From assembly GCA_029977605.1 (NCBI GenBank), contig JAPOKN010000002.1, forward strand, positions 6,925-70,924: DNA of 64,000 nt. The letters are read 5' to 3'. Of the stretch, positions 9,292 to 17,149 are shown piece by piece. Numbering within the stretch: the stretch's first letter is position 1; each line of letters begins with the position of its first letter. The notes below the pieces were generated by a model, which was not told the origin of the DNA, made no database searches, and saw only the letters and a program-made list of their open reading frames with translations. The position numbers were made by a program, and so were the translations under genes. The stretch is from Methanobacteriota archaeon. GTDB taxonomy: Archaea; Thermoplasmatota; Poseidoniia; MGIII; CG-Epi1.

Positions 9292-9870
9292 TTAATGCCA
9301 GCGATGATATGCAGGATGGCCTTCTTTTACTGCAACAAATAAGCCCCGACCTGTAGCACATGTCTTACCGTCTGCTTTCAACTCAATTATAACTTCGGCC
9401 CGGTCCTCCTGTAAAGCTAAAACTCTACTGTTTAGTTTTAACTTTATTCCTAGAGGTGTTGGCCTCTTTAACTTAATTTCATACTGAGCCGTTACAGTGC
9501 ATTGTGGTTTTTCCCAATTATTCTTATCCATTATTGCAATTGCTGCGGTCCAGTTTCCATGACAGTCAATCAGCGAACCTATAATGCCACCATTAATCAC
9601 TCCTGGAAAAGCTTGATGTTTTTCCTCACACTCAAACTCTGCAATAAGGCCGCCTTTAGAACGATAAGACTTGATCTGTAAACCGTCTTTGTTCGAAGGA
9701 CCGCAGCCGAAACATATAGAATTAGGTGCAAATTCGTCTTGAACTGGAAGTCCGCTCAAAATTGAATTTTTATTATCTGTCTTGATTTGTATATCTGCCT
9801 TATTTGATGGACTGCAATTAGAACAGCTGTGATCTGAGGAAAAAGAATCTTCAACAGTATGATCGCTCAT
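9292..9870 (-). CDS. hotdog-fold (PaaI-like) thioesterase with Cys-rich N-terminal extension
   Basis: 192 aa. CFGCGPSNKDGLQIK and GVINGGIIGSLIDCHGNW are typical of PaaI/4HBT-type thioesterases. Confidence 0.6.
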   Translation of the reverse strand: MSDHTVEDSFSSDHSCSNCSPSNKADIQIKTDNKNSILSGLPVQDEFAPNSICFGCGPSNKDGLQIKSYRSKGGLIAEFECEEKHQAFPGVINGGIIGSLIDCHGNWTAAIAIMDKNNWEKPQCTVTAQYEIKLKRPTPLGIKLKLNSRVLALQEDRAEVIIELKADGKTCATGRGLFVAVKEGHPAYHRWH

Positions 9871-11570
9871 GACAATTCCTTAATCTGTTCCTCTATTAAA
9901 CTTGCTGCGTACTCTAGAGTCTTATCATCGAATCTAAATTTAGCTCCTGCAGCTTCATATAAATCTGGAAGTGTTGCATTGCCACCAAGACCTAATGCAG
10001 CTTTGTAGTCTTCAATAGCTTTATTTTCATCCTCCAAGGAATTACCCCATATTTGTATTGCACCTAGCTGAGCCATTCCATATTCAACATAATAGAATGG
10101 AACATGGTAAATGTGTAACTTGTTGTGCCAACCTGTAGCAATTATGTCATCACATCCACTATAATCTATGTGCTCAGACATTTGAAATCTTTTCCAAAGG
10201 TTAGTCCATTCCTCGTCGCAATTATTTGGATCTAACGCATCTTCGGGGTTGGTATAGGCCCAGTGCTGAAATGCATCTACAACTGCCATATATGGCCAAA
10301 ACATAATGACTTTTTCTAAATGTTCAATTCTTGCCCTTGCAGAGTCTTGTTCAGAGTAGAAACCTCCATCTTTCTTAGTCAAGAAGGGAGAAGCTAGAAG
10401 TTCCATAGCCATTGATGCAACCTCAGCAAATTCCATTCCAACATCTCTTTGGCTGTTGTAGGGTAAATCCGCAGATTCAAAGACATGGAACGCGTGACCG
10501 CCCTCATGAATCATCGTCTGAACATCGCTATGTGTTCCAACGGCATTCATAAAGATGAAAGGTAGACGTTGATAGGGATATTCAGTACAATAACCACCGG
10601 GAGCTTTGCCCTTACGATTGCCTAAATCCAATAAGCCCTTCTTTCTCATTATCCCAAAATGATTGCCTAAGTCAGAATCTACTGAGCTAAATATATTATG
10701 ACATTTTTCTTCTAATTCACTAGCATTTTCAAAAGGAACAAGAGCCTCTCTTCCAAATATATCTACACTTAAGTCCCATGGTTTTAGTTTGTCGAGACCA
10801 AGTGCTTCCTTACGCTTTTGAAGTAATTTATTTGCTAAAGGTACAATGATCTTCTCGATAGAATCATGAAATGTTAAGCAATCATCAGGAGTGTAATCAA
10901 ATCTTTTCAAATATTCCCATCTCCAAGCTCTGTAGTCGTCATAACCTGAATTCTTAGCAATTGACATACGAATCTTGAGAATCTGCTTCCAAATTTGGTT
11001 TATCTCATCCCTATCCTTAAGTCTCCTGGCTGAAGCTAATTTCCAAGCTTTTTCACGTTCATTTCTATCTGTTTCTAGCATGACAGGAGATAATCGAGTT
11101 AACGTAACCTCTTCATCGTCCCAATTTACTGTTTGGGAACCTATAATCGCATCATATTCTTTTGATAGCTTCGCGTCGGAAGTGTGAAGAGGAAGATTAT
11201 CTTTTGAAAATAACTCCACTTCACTTTTCATTCCTCTCAAGGGAATTTCAAAATTGTCGGGTGATAATTCGGACTCTAAAAATTTTATTTTGAGTGTTTG
11301 GTTTCTAGAACTTACATTTTCACTTATGTCTTCAAGAAATCTGTGATACCTAGACTTAGCTTCTTCGTCTGCAGTGTCCACAGTAGTAGAAACATATACT
11401 GAGGTTCCAACTTCCCCAATTAGTTCAGATAAATCAGACCAATACTTCATCCAGTCTGAAATGTTTTCTGAAGTTAAACCTGAATTCTCCAAATAATCGA
11501 AAAAAGGAATATATTTATCCCAGGACCAATCCATCATTTGGCTGCTATCTTTTGGTAAGACATGATTCAT
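9867..11570 (-). CDS. pepF: M3-family oligoendopeptidase F-like metallopeptidase
   Basis: 567 aa. Zinc motif HEGGHAFH with a downstream EFAEVASM glutamate, and M3B length. Confidence 0.82.
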   Translation of the reverse strand: MNHVLPKDSSQMMDWSWDKYIPFFDYLENSGLTSENISDWMKYWSDLSELIGEVGTSVYVSTTVDTADEEAKSRYHRFLEDISENVSSRNQTLKIKFLESELSPDNFEIPLRGMKSEVELFSKDNLPLHTSDAKLSKEYDAIIGSQTVNWDDEEVTLTRLSPVMLETDRNEREKAWKLASARRLKDRDEINQIWKQILKIRMSIAKNSGYDDYRAWRWEYLKRFDYTPDDCLTFHDSIEKIIVPLANKLLQKRKEALGLDKLKPWDLSVDIFGREALVPFENASELEEKCHNIFSSVDSDLGNHFGIMRKKGLLDLGNRKGKAPGGYCTEYPYQRLPFIFMNAVGTHSDVQTMIHEGGHAFHVFESADLPYNSQRDVGMEFAEVASMAMELLASPFLTKKDGGFYSEQDSARARIEHLEKVIMFWPYMAVVDAFQHWAYTNPEDALDPNNCDEEWTNLWKRFQMSEHIDYSGCDDIIATGWHNKLHIYHVPFYYVEYGMAQLGAIQIWGNSLEDENKAIEDYKAALGLGGNATLPDLYEAAGAKFRFDDKTLEYAASLIEEQIKELS

Positions 11571-11606: not shown

Positions 11607-13976
11607 TTAATTGACTTTAAGAACTTTAAAAGTTGTTGGGCCTACTTTTACTTCATCGCCTTCTTTTGAACCCTCGAGTGATTTACCTATAGGGTTTGAC
11701 AACGGTATTTTCCCTTGCGGAATATTTGCATCTTCTTGGTTAACTAATTCAAAAGTGTGTTCTGTTTCCTTTGTCAAATTTTTAACAACTAGGCTAGTTC
11801 CTACAGAAGCTCCTGTCGATGAAGATGATTCAGCTTCTACAGGCTTATTCAAACTTTCAATACGTGCTTCCTTTATTTTATCTTCCAATTCTTTGTTACT
11901 ATCCGAAAGACTCTGAACCTCTGCATTCATTTCGTCAGCCATTTCTCTTTCTTTCGGTATTTCAATTTCCATCGCCTTAATCTTTCGCTCAGTATCTTCT
12001 TCACTGCCTATAGTTGTTCCTCGAAGGAATTCTAAATCTTCTTTTAGCTTTTCATGCTCTGTCTTCTCAGCCTCTAGCAATCTCTCTGCCTTATTTCTCT
12101 CATCAATGCTAATGTTTAGTTCCGCTTTGGCATCCTCAAATTGTTTCTTGAGTGTTTGCATAACTTTACTCACTTGTTGTGATGCATTTTCTAAAGCTGC
12201 TAAATCTTTCTGAGTCTTTTCTTTACTCCTAACTTCAATCTTTAATTCATCATCAATTTTCTTATTAGATTCTTTTTGATTGTCAACCTGCTCTTGTAAT
12301 TCCTTAAGCGAATCAGTCATACTAAGTATTTCATTTTCTTTTTGCCTGAATTGTTCACTACTTTGCTCGAGTTCAATTATTGTTTGCCTTTCAATATCTA
12401 ATTCATTCATCGTTAATGATGCCTTTTCTCTTGCGTCATTAAGTTCTTTCTTTGCCTTTTCTAAGTTTGTAGTCAATGTCGTAAATTTATCATTAATTCT
12501 TTTCTTATTTTTTTCCATTAATTTGACCTCTCTATCCAATTCTTTTCTTCTATTGATAGCCTCATTTCTTTCTGCAAGGGCCGATTTTTCCCTTTCATTA
12601 GCTTCTAAAGTATGTTGTTCCAATTCCATAATCTCTTTTTCTAAATTGTTCTTTTCTTGAACCGTTTTATCATATGAAGCTTTAACTGAATCATAAGACT
12701 CCAAAGCATTAACTGTATCTGGTTTCTCTAATTTCAATTTCCTCTCAGCGTCAACGGCTTTAGTTTCTGCGTCGTCACTCATGGTCCTTAGAGATCCTAT
12801 TTCTCTGGTCATCCTATCGCTAAGACGCATATCGTTTTCGTGTTTAGCTCTCAAATCTTCAATTTCTTTTTCAAGATTACTCTTTGCGGAAAGATCATCT
12901 AGCAACTCTTTCTCGGCCATTCTAGCTCTCTTCTCAACTTCAGATGTTGCAATTCTTGCAGTTTTCAATTTAGATTCTAGAGAACTATTAAGTGTATTCA
13001 CACTCTGATTTAAGGCTGTAATACGATCTAATTCGTTTTCTAAGTCATCAATACCGTCATAATCTATGTCACTGGTTGAAGCACGAACATCTTCAATTCT
13101 TTTTTCGGCCTCTTTCAACCTTTCTTCAGTATCTTCAAATTCTTGCATTAATTCTTTGCTTTTTTCTAACTCTCCGTCGTGGATTTTTTGCTGTCTTTCA
13201 ATTAGTTCCTGCTTTTTCAAAATCGCTTGCCATTCTTCATCGATATTTCCTAGTATGTAGAGCGTTCCTCCCCCAGTAAGAGCAGTACCTATCAAAACAA
13301 TAAAGAAACCTATTCCTGGACTCCAGGAAACTGGCCCTAATCTTCCAGTGATTCTATCAGCTTCCCCTGCTTGTAGCTGAACATATTCTTCACAATTTCC
13401 CTCGCCATAAAAAGTAAGTAAATTTTTGATACAACCCAGCTCTTTATTCGAATCCGAACCTTCAGTATTTGTTGAAGAAAGTGCTACTTCATCTTGTATT
13501 AATGCATCTGACCAAGTGGTGTAAAACAAAAAGGTTGACAAAAATCCTACTATGAGGACAATAATTGCAAAATATTTCAGATTCTTCAGCGCACTCCTCA
13601 AAGTATTCTGATGTAGACTACTAACTGCATTATTTGCCATGTAAGCAACTACCAAAGCTAAAAGGCCTGCTGCGTACGCAGTCATTTTAGCATTATTGGC
13701 GGAATCTACTTTGTTGAGACAATAAATACAGTCTTGACTATCGTAAGTAACTGAGTTACTATTTCCAGTAGTATCTGTCAGTAAATATGATTCCAAATAA
13801 TAGTGATACTGGAATGTATTATATTGAGTAACATTTCCAGTTACAGGATCTACGGTTTCTCTTGCTCCGTCAATTACAAACCATTTCCCGTAATCTCCAG
13901 TACTATTCACTGAAATTAGAATGCAAAGAAATGTAACAACTGCTACCGCTTGTATTTGTTGTAATTGCTCTTTCAT
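11607..13976 (-). CDS. membrane-anchored (about 4 TM) long coiled-coil protein with GreA/GreB-type C-terminal domain
   Basis: 789 aa. Hydrophobic segments lie in the first ~245 aa. About 450 aa are E/K/L/R-rich and helical. The last ~60 aa, HTFELVNQEDANIPQGKIPLSNPIGKSLEGSKEGDEVKV..FKVLKV, align by eye with the E. coli GreA C-terminus. Confidence 0.75.
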   Translation of the reverse strand: MKEQLQQIQAVAVVTFLCILISVNSTGDYGKWFVIDGARETVDPVTGNVTQYNTFQYHYYLESYLLTDTTGNSNSVTYDSQDCIYCLNKVDSANNAKMTAYAAGLLALVVAYMANNAVSSLHQNTLRSALKNLKYFAIIVLIVGFLSTFLFYTTWSDALIQDEVALSSTNTEGSDSNKELGCIKNLLTFYGEGNCEEYVQLQAGEADRITGRLGPVSWSPGIGFFIVLIGTALTGGGTLYILGNIDEEWQAILKKQELIERQQKIHDGELEKSKELMQEFEDTEERLKEAEKRIEDVRASTSDIDYDGIDDLENELDRITALNQSVNTLNSSLESKLKTARIATSEVEKRARMAEKELLDDLSAKSNLEKEIEDLRAKHENDMRLSDRMTREIGSLRTMSDDAETKAVDAERKLKLEKPDTVNALESYDSVKASYDKTVQEKNNLEKEIMELEQHTLEANEREKSALAERNEAINRRKELDREVKLMEKNKKRINDKFTTLTTNLEKAKKELNDAREKASLTMNELDIERQTIIELEQSSEQFRQKENEILSMTDSLKELQEQVDNQKESNKKIDDELKIEVRSKEKTQKDLAALENASQQVSKVMQTLKKQFEDAKAELNISIDERNKAERLLEAEKTEHEKLKEDLEFLRGTTIGSEEDTERKIKAMEIEIPKEREMADEMNAEVQSLSDSNKELEDKIKEARIESLNKPVEAESSSSTGASVGTSLVVKNLTKETEHTFELVNQEDANIPQGKIPLSNPIGKSLEGSKEGDEVKVGPTTFKVLKVN

Positions 13977-13999
13977 AGAGTTGATTTTACCAGACCTTC

Positions 14000-14007
14000 T
14001 ATTTAAA
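14000..14007 (-). promoter_or_regulatory. TATA box candidate (TTTAAATA on minus strand) 24 nt upstream of the ATG at 13976
   Basis: Exact match to the archaeal TTTAWATA consensus. The spacing implies a leaderless or near-leaderless mRNA. The same geometry occurs at 24941-24948 and 48335-48342. Confidence 0.4.
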
Positions 14008-14083
14008 GTTTTTGATTTTCACTGAGTACTAGTGTGAACAAAGCTATGAGATAACATTTTAATGGAGTAGTCTGTGAACGGCT

Positions 14084-17000
14084 ATGAAGGTCTGCCCAGT
14101 ATGTGAAATGGAAGAAGAGGATAGTGCTCTTTCATGTAGCATGTGTGGTTCTGATTTTGAACCTTCTGTTAAAGAGACTCCACAACAAGAATCGCCGGTC
14201 GACGTTCCCGAAGATATTTCTTCTGATATTGCTGAAATGAGTTTAGGTGATGTAGAAAAAACCGAACCTGAATCAGAAGTGACAAATGAATTAAGTGAAG
14301 AAGAAAAATTATTGGAAGAGACTCTAAGCGCTACTGAAACTGGAGCTTCAGAAGAAAAGTCTGAAAGTAGTTTCACAAAATTTACTGAACAGTTCTCAGA
14401 CATGGGAAAAATATTTGGCGACTTAAACAAAAGACTCGATGGAATATTCCTATCAAAAGGAGAATTGAATTACATTGCACCCTTAACTATAGTTGTACTT
14501 TCAATTTTATTACTTTCAGGAGTAATTGGATTGGCCGTATCTAGTGTACCTGGAACTGACCAAGAATCTTCAGATGGTTACAAACCTACTACACCCTACA
14601 ATAAGGAAATAAATGGAATTACTGTACTAATTGGAAGGGGAGTTGCTGAACCTTTCTCTGGAGAAGCATTCAACTGTGAAATTTGGGATAGTCAAATTTA
14701 CGAAGAGTTTCAAGAAGTTAACGATGAAGGATATTATATTCAATTAACTGACCGTAACGAAAATGGTACTGTCGATGATGAAGAAAGATACGGTTGTCCA
14801 GTCAACATGAAATTTATTAGTACTTTTTCATTTATTATTCTTAATCTTATACTGTTGACTACTGCATTTTACATTTACAACAAAGTTTCAAACACTGCAA
14901 TTATCATACCAGTTATAGGTTTCGCAGTTGTTGAAACTATTTTATTTGCAATATATGGCGGATTATTGAATAACGTTATTTTTGCATTACCTCTAACTAT
15001 TGGCCTCGTATGTACTGTAGGATTGATTGTAGCTTCAGGAGTTTTACTAATAAGAACCTCATTAGGACGTTCACTAAATGATCCTCCTAGTCTTACTTTC
15101 TACATATTTATCATAGCTGCAGCATTATTGTTTTCATCTGTTTTCTATAATTACTCACTTGGCCCTTACGCTATTTGTGACGGAGAATATACTCCCTCTG
15201 AGCTTCTCGATTTAAAAAATAATGTCCCAGAAGATTTAAGAACAGAATGTCAAAATAAAGGATATAAGAATTTGCAAGCCGTACCATTTGACTTAGGAAA
15301 TGGAAGTAACATGATACTACTACTATCTGCAACCTTCCTTTTCTTAGGAGTTGCTAATTCGCTAATTTCTAATACTAAGATTAATGATATTGACGAAGCA
15401 AAATACTTCTCCATGATTCTTTCTGGCCTTGGTCTACAATTTCTCATACTAGTTTTCAATGTAGTAACTAGTGAGGACGGGGGTTTGGGATTTGATGAAA
15501 ATGATACTGCACTAACTATCATGGCTCTTGGAGTAGCAACGATTGGAATGGTTTCATTTTATCGTAAAAGAAGAGGTGAAGCTGGATCAATGGGTGTTGC
15601 CTATTTCGTAATTTTTGCATCCGGAATTTTTGCTCTCTTCGGAACATTTATTGCCCCAGTAGTTCTTGGAGGCAATGACATTGAATGGCCTGAGGACGGG
15701 GATGAGCAATTTAATCTCGTCTTATCTGCTTTAGTTACAGCTGTAGGTTTCTGGCTAAGCTACAGATTTGGATCACAAAAATTGCGTGAACTTTCAATTG
15801 CTAGTGATGCAGCAATGCCTAATCGTCAGGATGCCTTTGCACCATCTGTTCCAGGGGAACAAAAGGCAATGCCCGAGTGGACTGTTGACTCAGCTATGGA
15901 GTTTTTAATGAACGAATATGGCGATGAATTCCAAGTTGAACTTAAACACACTACAGAACACACACCTGATCTCGAATTAGTTGAAAAAACAATGATGGAT
16001 ACTGTGGATCAATCGGTTGAAATCAGACAGGCAATAGAAGTTGACTACGATGTAGATTTCCATGAAATAGCTGAAGCATACTCTACTACGCAAGAAACTG
16101 TTGATGAAGTAATAACTCATTTAACTTCTGGTAAGAACATTATGCTTTTCGGAGAACCTGGAACTGGTAAAACTGCACTATCAAACATATTATTGACAAA
16201 ATTGTGTGGTGAAATTGAGCAACCAAATGGTAGCATGGCTCCAAATTACACTATTGTTACAGCGAATGCAGAATGGTCTAATTTCGATGTTATTGGCGGT
16301 ATCTCACCTGATGACTCTGGAGGATACTACTTCAAAGATGGATATGTAGCTGAAGCTGCAAAATTATGTGAAAAATCAATTCGTGAAAGAGGTAAACCTC
16401 ACTATCTTGTAATTGATGAGTTTAATCGAGCGAATATTGATGAAGCATTTGGTAAATTGTTTACTGTTTTCGAGTATAGAGATAAGCAACCTTTACTAAC
16501 GCACAAAGAAACTGGAGGAGCTCCATTCATGATGCCACCAGAGTTCCGTATTATAGGAACTATGAATACTCAGGATAAAAATACATTATTCAACGTTGGT
16601 TTTGCTCTAATGCGACGTTTTGCTTTTGTTGAAATTGGATTGCCTCTCCCTGAAGATGAATACCACCGTATGCCTGTTTTTGTTTACTTTAAGCTCAAAA
16701 AGCTTGGACTAGTTCCAGACAGACCGGATGGTGATGGTTTATGGAAATTTGGAGAAAAATGCCGACACTTCCCACAAAAGAAATTTGACTTCTACGACGA
16801 TGATGGAAACATGTACGCTTGTCACGAGAAACTGGTTAAATTTTTGGCACCCGGCGAACCACCTAAACGAGGCGACGAAACCCCTCTTGGAGTACGTACC
16901 TTTAGAAAAATTGGACCCGCATTACTTATCGATTCAATGGTTACTATATTTAATTCAATTAAGAAATATGGCCCAGAATTAGCCTTGGACAGAGTCATTA

Positions 17001-17149
17001 GATCCAACATAATGCCTTCACTTGAGGGTTTGGAAAGAAATGAAATAAGGTGCATGTTCTTACATGCGAAAGAAGTGCTTGGCCCTACTTCAATAGTTAC
17101 GGAAACTCTAGACAGAATGGCTAATTCAGACAGTCTAAGTTTATTCTAG
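14084..17149 (+). CDS. zinc-ribbon / acidic linker / ~10-TM / McrB-family (AAA_5-like) NTPase fusion protein
   Basis: 1021 aa. N-terminal CPVCx12CSMC. About 90 aa of D/E/S-rich linker. About 10 hydrophobic helices (aa ~128-565). Walker A GEPGTGKT (nt 16151-16174), Walker B LVIDEFNRANIDEAFGKLF, and IIGTMNTQDKN....ALMRRFAFVEI, which are the McrB-family signatures. Confidence 0.8.
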   Translation: MKVCPVCEMEEEDSALSCSMCGSDFEPSVKETPQQESPVDVPEDISSDIAEMSLGDVEKTEPESEVTNELSEEEKLLEETLSATETGASEEKSESSFTKFTEQFSDMGKIFGDLNKRLDGIFLSKGELNYIAPLTIVVLSILLLSGVIGLAVSSVPGTDQESSDGYKPTTPYNKEINGITVLIGRGVAEPFSGEAFNCEIWDSQIYEEFQEVNDEGYYIQLTDRNENGTVDDEERYGCPVNMKFISTFSFIILNLILLTTAFYIYNKVSNTAIIIPVIGFAVVETILFAIYGGLLNNVIFALPLTIGLVCTVGLIVASGVLLIRTSLGRSLNDPPSLTFYIFIIAAALLFSSVFYNYSLGPYAICDGEYTPSELLDLKNNVPEDLRTECQNKGYKNLQAVPFDLGNGSNMILLLSATFLFLGVANSLISNTKINDIDEAKYFSMILSGLGLQFLILVFNVVTSEDGGLGFDENDTALTIMALGVATIGMVSFYRKRRGEAGSMGVAYFVIFASGIFALFGTFIAPVVLGGNDIEWPEDGDEQFNLVLSALVTAVGFWLSYRFGSQKLRELSIASDAAMPNRQDAFAPSVPGEQKAMPEWTVDSAMEFLMNEYGDEFQVELKHTTEHTPDLELVEKTMMDTVDQSVEIRQAIEVDYDVDFHEIAEAYSTTQETVDEVITHLTSGKNIMLFGEPGTGKTALSNILLTKLCGEIEQPNGSMAPNYTIVTANAEWSNFDVIGGISPDDSGGYYFKDGYVAEAAKLCEKSIRERGKPHYLVIDEFNRANIDEAFGKLFTVFEYRDKQPLLTHKETGGAPFMMPPEFRIIGTMNTQDKNTLFNVGFALMRRFAFVEIGLPLPEDEYHRMPVFVYFKLKKLGLVPDRPDGDGLWKFGEKCRHFPQKKFDFYDDDGNMYACHEKLVKFLAPGEPPKRGDETPLGVRTFRKIGPALLIDSMVTIFNSIKKYGPELALDRVIRSNIMPSLEGLERNEIRCMFLHAKEVLGPTSIVTETLDRMANSDSLSLF

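What the first reader, a model, noticed from the sequence alone, without database searches (positions are those of the whole stretch)
14084..17149. McrB-family AAA+ NTPase fused to a zinc ribbon and a ~10-helix membrane domain, with no McrC nuclease
Seen in sequence: the cytoplasmic C-terminal ~350 aa carry the McrB-type signature set. These are GEPGTGKT, LVIDEFNRANIDEAFGKLFTVFE (compare DEINRAN..K.FGE in McrB) and IIGTMNTQDKN...ALMRRFAFVEI (compare MNTADRS...ALRRRF). Upstream are a CPxC...CxxC ribbon, a ~90-aa D/E/S-rich linker and ~10 TM helices, with two large outside loops each carrying a Cys pair.
Established knowledge: McrB GTPases normally work with an adjacent McrC endonuclease and carry an N-terminal DNA-reader domain. 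Here the next gene is a convergent peroxiredoxin and no nuclease-like ORF is present.
Inference: the usual DNA-binding N-terminus has been replaced by a polytopic membrane module. This suggests an NTP-driven machine coupled to the envelope (sensor, transporter-like, or anti-viral) rather than a classical type IV restriction enzyme.
Basis: partly seen in the sequence, partly recalled or inferred. Interest (0 to 1): 0.8.

Follow-up and report, generated by a model that had tools for sequence, protein, structure and literature searches.

The report
Membrane-embedded McrB-type motor, McrC-less paralogue
This gene encodes a restriction-enzyme-type (McrB) molecular motor built into a ten-helix membrane protein. 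It is one of two ancient copies kept by Marine Group III archaea, and only the other copy still sits beside a McrC-like partner, so a defence motor appears to have been rebuilt as a fixed membrane machine of unknown purpose.

Summary
ORF 14084-17149(+) encodes a 1021-aa protein: Zn ribbon, acidic linker, 10 TM helices (N-in/C-in, two outside loops each with an invariant Cys pair), cytoplasmic linker, McrB-clade AAA+ module. E. coli McrB is the only solved AAA+ relative (E 3e-19). Walker A/B, MNTQDKN and the RR pair are invariant, and no MoxR signal appears. The fusion is intact in more than 60 independent assemblies.

New findings:
- The window is Marine Group III (98% to CG-Epi1).
- These genomes carry two sister paralogues.
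- Paralogue B is always followed, in an operon, by an orphan protein "X". Profile-profile comparison shows X to be a remote McrC homologue (87.6%, E 3.5e-6; reversed controls 0.2%). It keeps the GTPase-stimulating K-N-x-R-x-Y finger and an E…ExK nuclease motif.
- The window gene is paralogue A. It never has X. It is always head-to-head with a 4-TM, coiled-coil, GreA-like protein.
- Both loci lie among housekeeping genes.
- The membrane domain has no relatives outside this family among 1.84 billion representatives.

"No McrC" is therefore true of the window but not of the genome. This is a new membrane-integrated variant of McrB/McrBC. Its cellular role is inferred, not shown.

The parts
14084..17149 (+). 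Whole gene: paralogue A of the MGIII membrane McrB-like NTPase (1021 aa plus stop)
   Evidence: ORF. Full-length homologues at 51-91% identity. 98% identical to Marine Group III CG-Epi1 contig MIZA01000020.1.
14084..14158 (+). N-terminal four-Cys zinc ribbon (aa 1-25: CPVC...CSMCG), cytoplasmic
   Evidence: C18 and C21 are invariant; C4 and C7 are at least 90% conserved. The paralogue B equivalent gives a weak Pfam Zn_Ribbon_1 hit.
14159..14458 (+). Acidic D/E/S-rich linker (aa 26-125), mostly disordered. It holds one conserved short acidic helix (aa about 72-82, E78/E79 invariant) and a juxtamembrane helix (97-122). Most of it is absent from paralogue B.
   Evidence: Low conservation and pLDDT below 50, except the helices at 72-82 and 97-122. 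Paralogue B has a 64-residue gap here.
14459..15769 (+). Ten-helix membrane domain (aa 126-562), N-in/C-in. It is an orphan fold or family.
   Evidence: Hydropathy. Positive-inside count. A profile search of 1.84e9 representatives found only 32 hits, all from the same family. Foldseek against PDB gave nothing better than E 0.2.
14543..14803 (+). Outside loop 1 (aa 154-240) with the invariant pair C198/C238
15152..15298 (+). Outside loop 2 (aa 357-405) with the invariant pair C365/C389. In some homologues it is expanded by 120-330 aa of D/N/G-rich repeats.
15770..16087 (+). Cytoplasmic linker or N-linker region (aa 563-668). Strongly conserved within paralogue A, but only 33% identical to paralogue B.
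16088..16639 (+). McrB-clade AAA+ core (aa 669-852)
   Evidence: Pfam AAA_5 at E 2e-19. McrB PRK11331. PDB McrB at E 3e-19. Nearly every residue is invariant in 44 homologues.
16151..16174 (+). Walker A motif GEPGTGKT (aa 690-697). It is followed by A698 instead of the aromatic residue of canonical McrB.
   Evidence: The aromatic residue's role is described in PMC7680126 and in the bioRxiv preprint 10.64898/2026.08.31.748284.
16406..16435 (+). Walker B block LVIDEFNRAN (aa 775-784: D778, E779, N781)
16562..16582 (+). McrB consensus loop MNTQDKN (aa 827-833). N828 is the sensor-1 equivalent. D831 is the residue contacted by the McrC finger.
16613..16618 (+). Arg pair R844-R845 (trans-acting sensor II / arginine finger motif of McrB)
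16640..17146 (+). C-terminal helical, lid-like domain (aa 853-1021), specific to this subfamily. It ends in the conserved tail S-x-x-LS-[LV]-F.
   Evidence: Conserved in paralogue B and in the soluble relatives L068 and L069. Helices predicted.
13977..14083 (.). 107-bp divergent intergenic region with two A/T-rich TATA-like elements, each about 25 bp upstream of one of the two start codons
   Evidence: Read directly from the sequence. Promoter function is inferred only.
11607..13976 (-). Conserved head-to-head neighbour: a 789-aa protein with 4 TM helices, outside loops with Cys pairs, about 440 aa of cytoplasmic coiled coil and a GreA-like C-terminus
   Evidence: Pfam GreA_GreB at E 1.4e-9. 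E. coli GreA 1grj residues 19-155 at E 7.7e-7. TM helices and Cys positions. Present upstream of paralogue A in every locus that has an upstream flank, down to 33% identity, and never next to paralogue B.

Best explanation
SHOWN:
- The gene encodes a full-length, membrane-integrated member of the McrB clade of AAA+ NTPases. Its order is Zn ribbon, acidic linker, 10 TM helices, linker, AAA+ core, lid.
- It is paralogue A of an ancient gene pair found in Marine Group III (Poseidoniia) archaea.
- The sister paralogue B has the same architecture. It forms a tight operon with protein X, a remote homologue of McrC. X has an Ig-like N-domain, a finger domain with the K-N-x-R-x-Y motif, and a PD-(D/E)xK-like domain.
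- The nearest outgroup is a soluble TPR-EVE-2xAAA protein that is also followed by X.
- The family therefore descends from an McrBC-type system whose motor became anchored in the membrane.
- Paralogue A has no adjacent McrC. It is instead invariably paired head-to-head with a 4-TM, coiled-coil, GreA-like protein.
- Both loci lie among housekeeping genes.

INFERRED mechanism:
- Like McrB, the cytoplasmic modules assemble on NTP into a hexameric ring under the membrane, giving about 60 TM helices per ring. The active sites are completed in trans by R844/R845.
- Hydrolysis is gated by a basic finger that repositions N828/D831. For paralogue A the best candidate is X acting in trans, or mixed A/B rings, because A keeps every ring residue unchanged.
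- The ring is coupled to helices TM6-10 through the conserved cytoplasmic loops I-N-D-I-D-E-A-K-Y and F-Y-R-K-R-R.
- The divergent outer half (TM1-5 and the two Cys-pair loops) gives A and B different extracellular specificities.
- The complex is most likely a defence-derived, now fixed, envelope-associated machine that handles nucleic acid at the membrane.
- Nucleotide preference (GTP or ATP) is open.
For: Identity:
- McrB is the only solved AAA+ relative (E 3e-19), with 33% identity to EcMcrB.
- NCBIfam McrB scores 67.6 bits against 18 bits for GvpN.
- Walker A, DExN, MNTQDKN and RR are invariant in 44 sequences. They match the family-defining motifs described in PMC7680126, PMC11090510 and the LlaI preprint.

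The fusion is real: 62 full-length cluster representatives and 66 GTDB loci.

Paralogy:
- 24 genomes carry both copies.
- The two clades are reciprocally monophyletic, with L068 and L069 as outgroups.

X:
- It starts 2-8 nt after paralogue B in 35 of 35 loci.
- It also follows the EVE-2xAAA protein in L068 (30% identity, E 5e-78).
- hhalign of the X profile against a McrC profile gives Prob 87.6%, E 3.5e-6, over nearly the whole of McrC. K157-N-T-R-Y-Y, D244 and D257-A-K259 align with X's (K/R)-N-R-S-Y, E426 and E439-x-K441. Reversed controls give 0.2%.

Coiled-coil neighbour: present in all paralogue A loci and in no paralogue B locus.

Core-genome context.

Coupling loops and domain-wise divergence: AAA core 82%, TM6-10 39%, TM1-5 17-21%.

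No viral homologues were found.
Against: - Nothing shows that paralogue A touches X, paralogue B or the coiled-coil protein. The near-identity of the A and B rings is a property of the whole subfamily, because even the soluble L068 and L069 share it. It therefore does not prove a shared partner.
- Adjacency of the coiled-coil gene could be plain synteny. The M3 peptidase next to it is conserved too.
- X has no Pfam, PADLOC or PDB sequence hit. Foldseek with its model found only Ig-like domains.
- Each X subfamily alone gives only 2-4% hhalign probability.
- The nuclease Lys of X is kept in only 10 of 30 sequences.
- The aromatic residue that stacks on guanine in McrB is Ala here.
- The AF2 model of the AAA+ part is poor, with pLDDT below 50. 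No oligomer was modelled.
- Universal, syntenic, slowly evolving genes are atypical for defence systems.
Confidence: 0.6

Rival explanations
1. Paralogue A works independently of B and X. Together with its head-to-head coiled-coil GreA-like membrane partner it forms a housekeeping envelope or membrane-organising motor or sensor, with no nuclease and no nucleic-acid role. The McrB ring has simply been re-used as a switch.
For: - Paralogue A never has X next to it, and no McrC-like gene lies in the 64 kb.
- The coiled-coil gene is its only neighbour that is conserved and specific to A.
- The context is core genome and the gene is under strong purifying selection.
- The A-specific acidic linker carries a conserved helix that could be a docking site.
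Against: - The coiled-coil protein shows no similarity to McrC or X (hhalign 0.1-0.2%) and has no K-N-x-R-x-Y finger.
- Paralogue A keeps D831 and the whole consensus loop that canonical McrB uses to receive the McrC finger.
- Adjacency may be mere synteny.
Confidence: 0.22
2. It is a bona fide antiviral type IV restriction system whose motor is anchored in the membrane to meet incoming viral DNA. A and B are two receptor-specific versions that share the nuclease X.
For: - The family descends from McrBC, and its outgroup carries an EVE modified-base reader.
- X in the window's lineage keeps E...E-x-K.
- The extracellular loops are the fastest-evolving parts, and loop 2 carries lineage-specific repeat expansions.
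Against: - The genes sit at fixed syntenic positions among housekeeping genes, not in defence islands.
- Both copies occur in most MGIII genomes.
- There are no meaningful PADLOC hits.
- No reader domain is present.
- The nuclease Lys is lost in two thirds of the X sequences.
Confidence: 0.13
3. It is a MoxR/RavA-type AAA+ chaperone, as some JGI annotations say, fused to a membrane anchor.
For: JGI labels three homologues 'MoxR-like ATPase'. Pfam AAA_5 is shared by several helix-2-insert AAA+ groups.
Against: - No MoxR, RavA, CbbQ or NorQ chain appears at E<1 in PDB, whereas McrB scores 3e-19.
- There is no AAA_3 hit.
- The McrB-specific MNxxD[R/K] loop and DEFNRAN block are present.
- No VWA partner lies nearby.
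Confidence: 0.03
4. The fusion is an assembly or gene-calling artefact that joins a membrane protein to an ATPase.
For: None found.
Against: The same uninterrupted architecture appears in 62 cluster representatives from ENA, JGI, NCBI and Logan, and in 66 GTDB loci that include single-cell genomes. Paralogue B repeats it independently.
Confidence: 0.01

Closest known systems
McrB of the McrBC type IV restriction system (E. coli 6HZ4/6UT6; T. gammatolerans 6UT3)
   Same: - Same AAA+ clade and the only solved relative (E 3e-19).
- It shares Walker A, the DExN Walker B block, the MNxxD[R/K] consensus loop and the trans RR pair.
- The sister paralogue has a McrC homologue immediately downstream, as in mcrBC.
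   Different: - There is no DNA-reader N-domain. A Zn ribbon plus a 10-TM domain takes its place.
- No McrC is adjacent to this copy.
- Ala replaces the aromatic residue after the P-loop.
- The lid domain is longer and specific to the subfamily.
- The gene is a fixed core-genome gene rather than a mobile defence gene.
CoCoNuT-like 'CoCoPALM' McrB GTPases fused to an FtsB-like TM helix plus coiled coil (Bell et al., eLife 2024, PMC11090510)
   Same: These are McrB-family GTPases tied to the membrane and to long coiled coils, with non-canonical partners.
   Different: - Those have an NxD signature, a single TM helix, coiled coils in cis, and McrC plus pilus-assembly neighbours.
- This protein has NxxD (N828-T-Q-D831) and a polytopic 10-TM domain.
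- Its coiled coil lies on a separate, divergently transcribed protein.
LlaI.R2 / BsuMI.R2 reader-less McrB homologues (bioRxiv 10.64898/2026.08.31.748284)
   Same: These are McrB motors that lack a fused DNA reader and the N-linker guanine determinants. They show that the family can be nucleotide-promiscuous.
   Different: Those are soluble, work with a separate DNA-binding R1 protein and a McrC, and are plasmid-borne defence genes.
FtsK/SpoIIIE and FtsH (architectural analogues only; from general knowledge, not tested here)
   Same: An N-terminal membrane anchor and a linker, followed by a cytoplasmic hexameric P-loop motor.
   Different: These are unrelated motor families (RecA-like FtsK; classic-clade AAA+ with a protease in FtsH). 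No sequence or fold similarity was found.
Soluble TPR-EVE-2xAAA_5 protein plus X in Thermoplasmata bin33 (CP070751.1; locus L068)
   Same: It is the closest non-MGIII relative of the AAA+/lid module (46% identity, same C-terminal tail) and is followed by the same McrC-like X.
   Different: It is soluble and carries an EVE reader and a degenerate first AAA+ domain. Its version of X lacks the nuclease Lys.

Membership tests
McrB-like AAA+ GTPase family | Significant sequence similarity to characterised McrB, stronger than to any other AAA+ group | tested here: met
   - PDB phmmer gives EcMcrB at E 3.4e-19 and TgMcrB at 1e-14. No other AAA+ reaches E<0.9.
- NCBIfam McrB scores 67.6 bits. That is far below the equivalog cut-off of 637, so the protein is not an orthologue of EcMcrB.
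McrB-like AAA+ GTPase family | Walker A GxxGxGK[T/S] and a Walker B D-[DE] followed by the catalytic Asn (DEINRAN block) | tested here: met
   G690-EPGTGKT-697 and D778-E779-F-N781-RAN are both present and invariant in 44 sequences.
McrB-like AAA+ GTPase family | Consensus loop MNxxD[R/K] (NxxD signature) in place of sensor 1 | tested here: met
   M827-N-T-Q-D831-K-N is invariant. The motif definition comes from PMC7680126, PMC11090510 and the LlaI preprint.
McrB-like AAA+ GTPase family | Adjacent trans-acting Arg pair (sensor II / arginine finger) on the helix after the consensus loop | tested here: met
   R844-R845 in ALMRRF is invariant and aligns with EcMcrB ALRRRF.
McrB-like AAA+ GTPase family | Aromatic residue right after the P-loop that stacks on the guanine base (Ec F209, Tg W223) | tested here: not met
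   The position is A698 and is invariant. It is K or R in the soluble relatives. GTP preference is therefore uncertain.
McrB-like AAA+ GTPase family | Nucleotide-dependent hexamer with GTPase activity stimulated by McrC | not testable with these tools
   This needs biochemistry or multimer modelling. The monomer AF2 model of the AAA+ part is of low confidence.
McrBC type IV restriction system | McrC (finger domain plus PD-(D/E)xK nuclease) encoded next to the McrB gene | tested here: not met
   - No McrC or X homologue is adjacent or anywhere in the window, or in any paralogue A locus.
- The feature is met for the sister paralogue B: X is present in 35 of 35 loci, with hhalign to McrC at Prob 87.6%.
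McrBC type IV restriction system | N-terminal nucleic-acid reader domain on McrB (DUF3578/ADAM, EVE, YTH and similar) | tested here: not met
   Only a Zn ribbon, an acidic linker and 10 TM helices lie upstream of the AAA+ module, and no reader domain appears in Pfam. The soluble outgroup does have EVE.
McrBC type IV restriction system | Defence-gene behaviour: patchy distribution, defence-island context, hits to defence models | tested here: not met
   - The gene holds a syntenic position among ArgRS, Elp3, TFB and an M24 peptidase.
- It is present in most MGIII genomes.
- PADLOC gives only P-loop-level noise.
MoxR/RavA AAA+ chaperones | MoxR-type AAA (Pfam AAA_3) with similarity to RavA/CbbQ/NorQ, usually with a VWA-domain partner | tested here: not met
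   There is no AAA_3 hit, no MoxR-class PDB hit at E<1 and no VWA gene within 10 kb on either side in related loci.
McrC family (tested for protein X, partner of paralogue B; not in the window) | Finger domain with the basic GTPase-stimulating residue, plus a C-terminal PD-(D/E)xK core | tested here: inconclusive
   For:
- hhalign gives Prob 87.6%, E 3.5e-6, over McrC 8-363, with K157-N-T-R-Y-Y, D244 and D257-x-K259 aligned. Controls give 0.2%.
- The predicted alpha-beta-beta-beta-alpha-beta order fits the fold.

Against:
- There are no Pfam or PDB sequence hits.
- Foldseek returns only Ig-domain matches.
- The Lys is kept in 10 of 30 sequences.

The most novel reading that the evidence does not exclude
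Marine Group III archaea have domesticated a McrBC restriction system into a fixed, lineage-wide membrane machine. Two paralogous 10-TM McrB motors (A and B, perhaps in mixed rings) share one McrC-derived regulator or nuclease (X). Paralogue A is additionally wired to a membrane-anchored, GreA-like coiled-coil protein. Together they would couple events at the cell surface to NTP-driven handling of nucleic acid at the inner face of the membrane, for example DNA uptake, export or segregation, or transcription-linked surveillance. That would make it a housekeeping function new for the McrB family.
Probability: 0.2. Interest if true: 0.85.

Novelty: new variant of a known kind. Interest (0 to 1): 0.62.

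Why it matters
McrB is the only GTP-using AAA+ motor, and it is known almost entirely as a soluble, mobile antiviral restriction component.

Here the same motor, with all catalytic motifs intact, is welded to an orphan ten-helix membrane domain. It has been duplicated and kept at fixed core-genome positions across a whole uncultivated, globally distributed marine archaeal lineage. One copy retains a highly diverged McrC. The other has swapped that neighbour for a membrane-anchored GreA-like coiled-coil protein.

If the inferred assembly is right, this is a clear case of a defence system being recruited into a conserved envelope machine. It also gives a concrete, testable four-gene set (A, B, X and the coiled-coil protein) for studying Marine Group III cell biology, about which very little is known.

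On the practical side, it corrects database labels ('MoxR-like ATPase', 'hypothetical protein') and identifies a McrC family that Pfam and PADLOC models miss.

Tried and rejected
1. Looking up the exact window protein in the assembly index found nothing on record.
2. The full-length AF2 model had a mean pLDDT of 56.8. The AAA+ part fell below 50, probably because the alignment is almost invariant there. Foldseek against PDB gave no hit better than E 0.2, so no fold could be assigned to the membrane domain.
3. Attempts to identify X all failed:
   - Pfam at E up to 1 and at E up to 10 on 30 members
   - PADLOC
   - phmmer against PDB
   - a profile search against PDB
   - hhalign against the single E. 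coli McrC sequence, which gave 0.8%
   - Foldseek with the X model, which was dominated by the N-terminal Ig-like domain
   Only a profile built from 14 diverse McrC sequences gave a signal.
5. The idea that the coiled-coil neighbour is a cryptic McrC was rejected. hhalign gave 0.1-0.2% and the finger motif is absent.
6. No internal repeat was found in the TM domain, and no similarity between the TM domains of paralogue A and the coiled-coil protein. blastp gave nothing significant.
7. The D/N/G-rich loop-2 inserts have no Pfam assignment.
8. A second GTDB scan with the AAA module returned the same loci as the first.
9. A viral-contig scan found no relatives.
10. The literature search found no description of this architecture.

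Full report
**Observation**

All the quoted motifs are present.

- Pfam finds AAA_5 at aa 685-846 (E 2e-19).
- The best NCBIfam model is E. coli McrB (PRK11331, E 8.6e-19, 67.6 bits). The next AAA+ model, GvpN, scores 18 bits.
- Against all PDB sequences, the only AAA+ matches are McrB chains: 6hz4/6ut6/7vsr at E about 3e-19, and T. gammatolerans 6ut3 at 1e-14. Nothing of the MoxR/RavA class appears even at E<1.
- E. coli McrB matches only this ORF in the window (33% over 187 aa, E 1.4e-20).

Hydropathy gives ten TM segments between aa 131 and 561. The short predicted inside loops carry 8 K/R in 35 residues, and the short outside loops carry none in 29. The four loop cysteines (C198, C238, C365, C389) all lie in the two large outside loops. 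These four cysteines, and C18/C21 of the N-terminal CPxC...CxxC ribbon, are invariant in 44 homologues. The downstream gene is a convergent AhpC/TSA peroxiredoxin.

**The fusion is real, and the source organism**

A search of 5.8 billion proteins returned 62 cluster representatives. Almost all are full-length (985-1052 aa) at 51-91% identity, and they come from ENA, JGI, NCBI and Logan assemblies. A scan of one genome per GTDB species found 66 loci. The best (98% identity) lies on Marine Group III euryarchaeote CG-Epi1 contig MIZA01000020.1. Contigs labelled Chloroflexi or Dehalococcoidia carry TFB and Elp3 genes, so they are mis-binned archaeal DNA. A frameshift or assembly artefact is excluded.

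**Family membership of the motor**

The defining features of McrB-like GTPases are set out in PMC7680126, PMC11090510 and the LlaI preprint.

| Feature | State in this protein |
|---|---|
| Walker A | GEPGTGKT 690-697, invariant |
| Walker B block D-E-x-N | D778, E779, N781, invariant |
| Consensus loop MNxxD[R/K] replacing sensor 1 | MNTQDKN 827-833, invariant |
| Trans-acting Arg pair | R844-R845, invariant |
| Aromatic residue after the P-loop that stacks on guanine (Ec F209, Tg W223) | Not met: Ala698 |

LlaI.R2 and BsuMI.R2 show that McrB homologues can be nucleotide-promiscuous. I therefore call the protein an NTPase of the McrB clade and leave GTP versus ATP open. The MoxR reading, which appears as a JGI label, is rejected.

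**The membrane domain is an orphan**

A profile of aa 105-585 was searched with HMMER against 1.84 billion representative proteins. It found only 32 hits. All were fragments or members of the same family, including a diverged full-length form of 876-899 aa. The full-length AF2 model is confident only for TM1-5 and the loops (pLDDT 70-89). Foldseek against PDB gave nothing better than E 0.2.

Some homologues (1137-1306 aa) carry 120-330 extra residues of D/N/G-rich repeats inside loop 2. This fits an exposed, evolvable outside loop. Pfam does not recognise these repeats.

**Two paralogues**

The GTDB scan shows two hits per genome. One is the window type, paralogue A (L005-L030). The other, paralogue B (L031-L064), is 41-50% identical. 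I count 24 genomes with both, 2 with A only and 11 with B only, and MAG incompleteness is likely. CG-Epi1 itself has B on another contig (L051). B has the same architecture: Zn ribbon, shorter linker, TM domain, AAA+ module.

Identity between A and B from the same genome, by region:

| Region | Identity |
|---|---|
| AAA core | 82% |
| Lid | 52% |
| TM6-10 | 39% |
| TM1-5 and outside loops | 17-21% |

An NJ tree of the AAA+/lid module gives two reciprocally monophyletic clades, A and B. A Thermoplasmata protein (L068) and a Planctomycetales protein (L069) are the outgroups.

**Paralogue B has a McrC-like partner**

In 35 of 35 paralogue B loci with downstream sequence, a gene of about 690 aa, here called "X", starts 2-8 nt after B on the same strand. 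It is never found beside A and is absent from the window.

A homologue of X (30% identity, E 5e-78) also follows the closest non-MGIII relative of the motor. That relative is a soluble 1090-aa protein with TPR repeats, an EVE modified-base reader and two AAA_5 domains. EVE-McrB fusions are the commonest EVE architecture in prokaryotes (PMC10542128).

Direct searches with X were uninformative:

- X has no Pfam, PADLOC or PDB sequence hit.
- Its AF2 model (pLDDT 67) shows an N-terminal Ig-like sandwich, a helical middle part and a C-terminal alpha-beta-beta-beta-alpha-beta unit.
- Foldseek saw only the Ig-like domain.

I then built a McrC profile from E. coli McrC and 13 diverse plasmid McrC homologues and compared it with the X profile. 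hhalign gave Prob 87.6%, E 3.5e-6, over X 114-519 and McrC 8-363. Reversed-sequence controls gave 0.2%.

The alignment pairs these elements:

| X | E. coli McrC |
|---|---|
| IRGAVRWQKT | IKGRIEFAKT |
| (K/R)-N-R-[SA]-Y | K157-N-T-R-Y-Y |
| P425-E426 | D244 |
| E439-x-K441 | D257-A-K259 |
| VYKVLAYM...GGIIYPG | LYQLMNYL...GGLLIYP |

K157 is the residue that stimulates McrB GTPase (PMC7680126).

I therefore regard X as a remote McrC homologue. Three caveats apply:

- Each X subfamily alone gives only 2-4% probability.
- The nuclease Lys is kept in only 10 of 30 sequences.
- It is intact (E-T-K) in the CG-Epi1 lineage.

**What is specific to the window gene (paralogue A)**

Its only conserved and A-specific neighbour is the divergently transcribed gene at 11607-13976 (- strand), separated by 107 bp. 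That gene encodes:

- 4 TM helices, with Cys pairs in the outside loops;
- about 440 aa of coiled coil;
- a C-terminus that matches Pfam GreA_GreB (E 1.4e-9) and aligns with E. coli GreA residues 19-155 (E 7.7e-7).

It is present upstream of A in every locus that has an upstream flank, down to 33% identity, and never beside B. It is not a hidden McrC (hhalign 0.1-0.2%). The neighbouring M3 peptidase is also conserved, so synteny alone could explain the adjacency. The peroxiredoxin is conserved only in close relatives.

Both the A locus (ArgRS, Elp3, TFB, M24 peptidase) and the B-X locus (tRNA-splicing endonuclease, GAPDH, PurB, L15e) lie in housekeeping surroundings. No viral contig carries a relative.

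**Interpretation**

Shown:

- The protein is a membrane-integrated McrB-clade NTPase.
- An ancient A/B duplication exists.
- B is in an operon with a McrC-like X.
- The nearest soluble relative looks like a classical EVE-McrB/McrC pair.
- A lacks an adjacent McrC but keeps every catalytic and consensus-loop residue.

Inferred:

- The modules form hexameric rings beneath the membrane.
- Hydrolysis is gated by a basic finger. The best candidate for A is X acting in trans or in mixed A/B rings.
- The ring couples to TM6-10 through two cytoplasmic loops conserved in both paralogues, I-N-D-I-D-E-A-K-Y and F-Y-R-K-R-R.
- The divergent outer halves give A and B different extracellular specificities.

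The strong conservation of the ring is shared with the soluble relatives, so it does not prove a shared partner. Fixed position, near-universal presence and slow evolution argue against an ordinary defence gene. They favour a domesticated, lineage-specific envelope machine whose cellular task is unknown.

**Verdict**

"No McrC" holds for the window but not for the genome.
- No paper in the searchable library describes this architecture. The nearest described cases are the single-TM, coiled-coil "CoCoPALM" McrB homologues with an NxD motif.
- I rate it a new variant of a known kind, with interest 0.62.

Noticed in passing
window 11607-13976 (- strand): A membrane-anchored GreA homologue in an archaeon. 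It has 4 TM helices, about 440 aa of coiled coil, and a C-terminus that aligns with E. coli GreA residues 19-155 (D41 kept; E44 replaced by Met). Archaea are not known to use Gre factors, so this protein is odd in its own right.
   Followed up: partly
L051 10786-12864 (MGIII CG-Epi1 contig MIZA01000008.1); L068 10389-11987: Protein X is an orphan family of about 530-700 aa. It consists of an Ig-like N-domain, a finger-like helical domain, a PD-(D/E)xK-like domain and, in MGIII, a long acidic tail. It is invisible to Pfam, PADLOC and PDB sequence searches, yet profile-profile comparison shows it to be a remote McrC homologue.
   Followed up: yes
L068 7023-10295 (Thermoplasmata archaeon bin33, CP070751.1): A soluble 1090-aa protein with TPR repeats, an EVE domain and tandem AAA_5 domains. 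The first AAA+ has a degenerate Walker B (IINKMNK) and no MNxxD loop. It is followed by an X homologue that lacks the nuclease Lys.
   Followed up: partly
L069 977-3775 (Planctomycetales bacterium, JAKEIC010000067.1): A bacterial relative of the same AAA+/lid module (42% identity, same C-terminal LSVFG tail), fused to a DUF4340 domain. No X-like gene lies downstream on the short contig.
   Followed up: no
homologues P0037-P0050 (for example P0048 aa about 390-720): Outside loop 2 is expanded by 120-330 aa of D/N/G-rich repeats that look like DxDxDG calcium-binding loops. Pfam does not recognise them.
   Followed up: partly
P0056, P0059, P0191 (source names): Contigs carrying these archaeal genes are deposited in MAGs labelled Chloroflexi, Dehalococcoidia and SAR86. 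The P0056 contig also carries TFB and Elp3, so these are binning errors.
   Followed up: partly
window 9292-9870 and 9867-11570 (- strand): A thioesterase-like ORF with a Cys-rich N-terminal stretch overlaps the stop of the upstream M3 peptidase gene by 4 nt. This suggests the two genes are translationally coupled.
   Followed up: no
window 13977-14083: The 107-bp divergent spacer holds two A/T-rich TATA-like elements (tatttaaag near 14000; cattttaatg near 14055). Each lies about 25 bp from a start codon, which would give leaderless transcripts for both genes.
   Followed up: no
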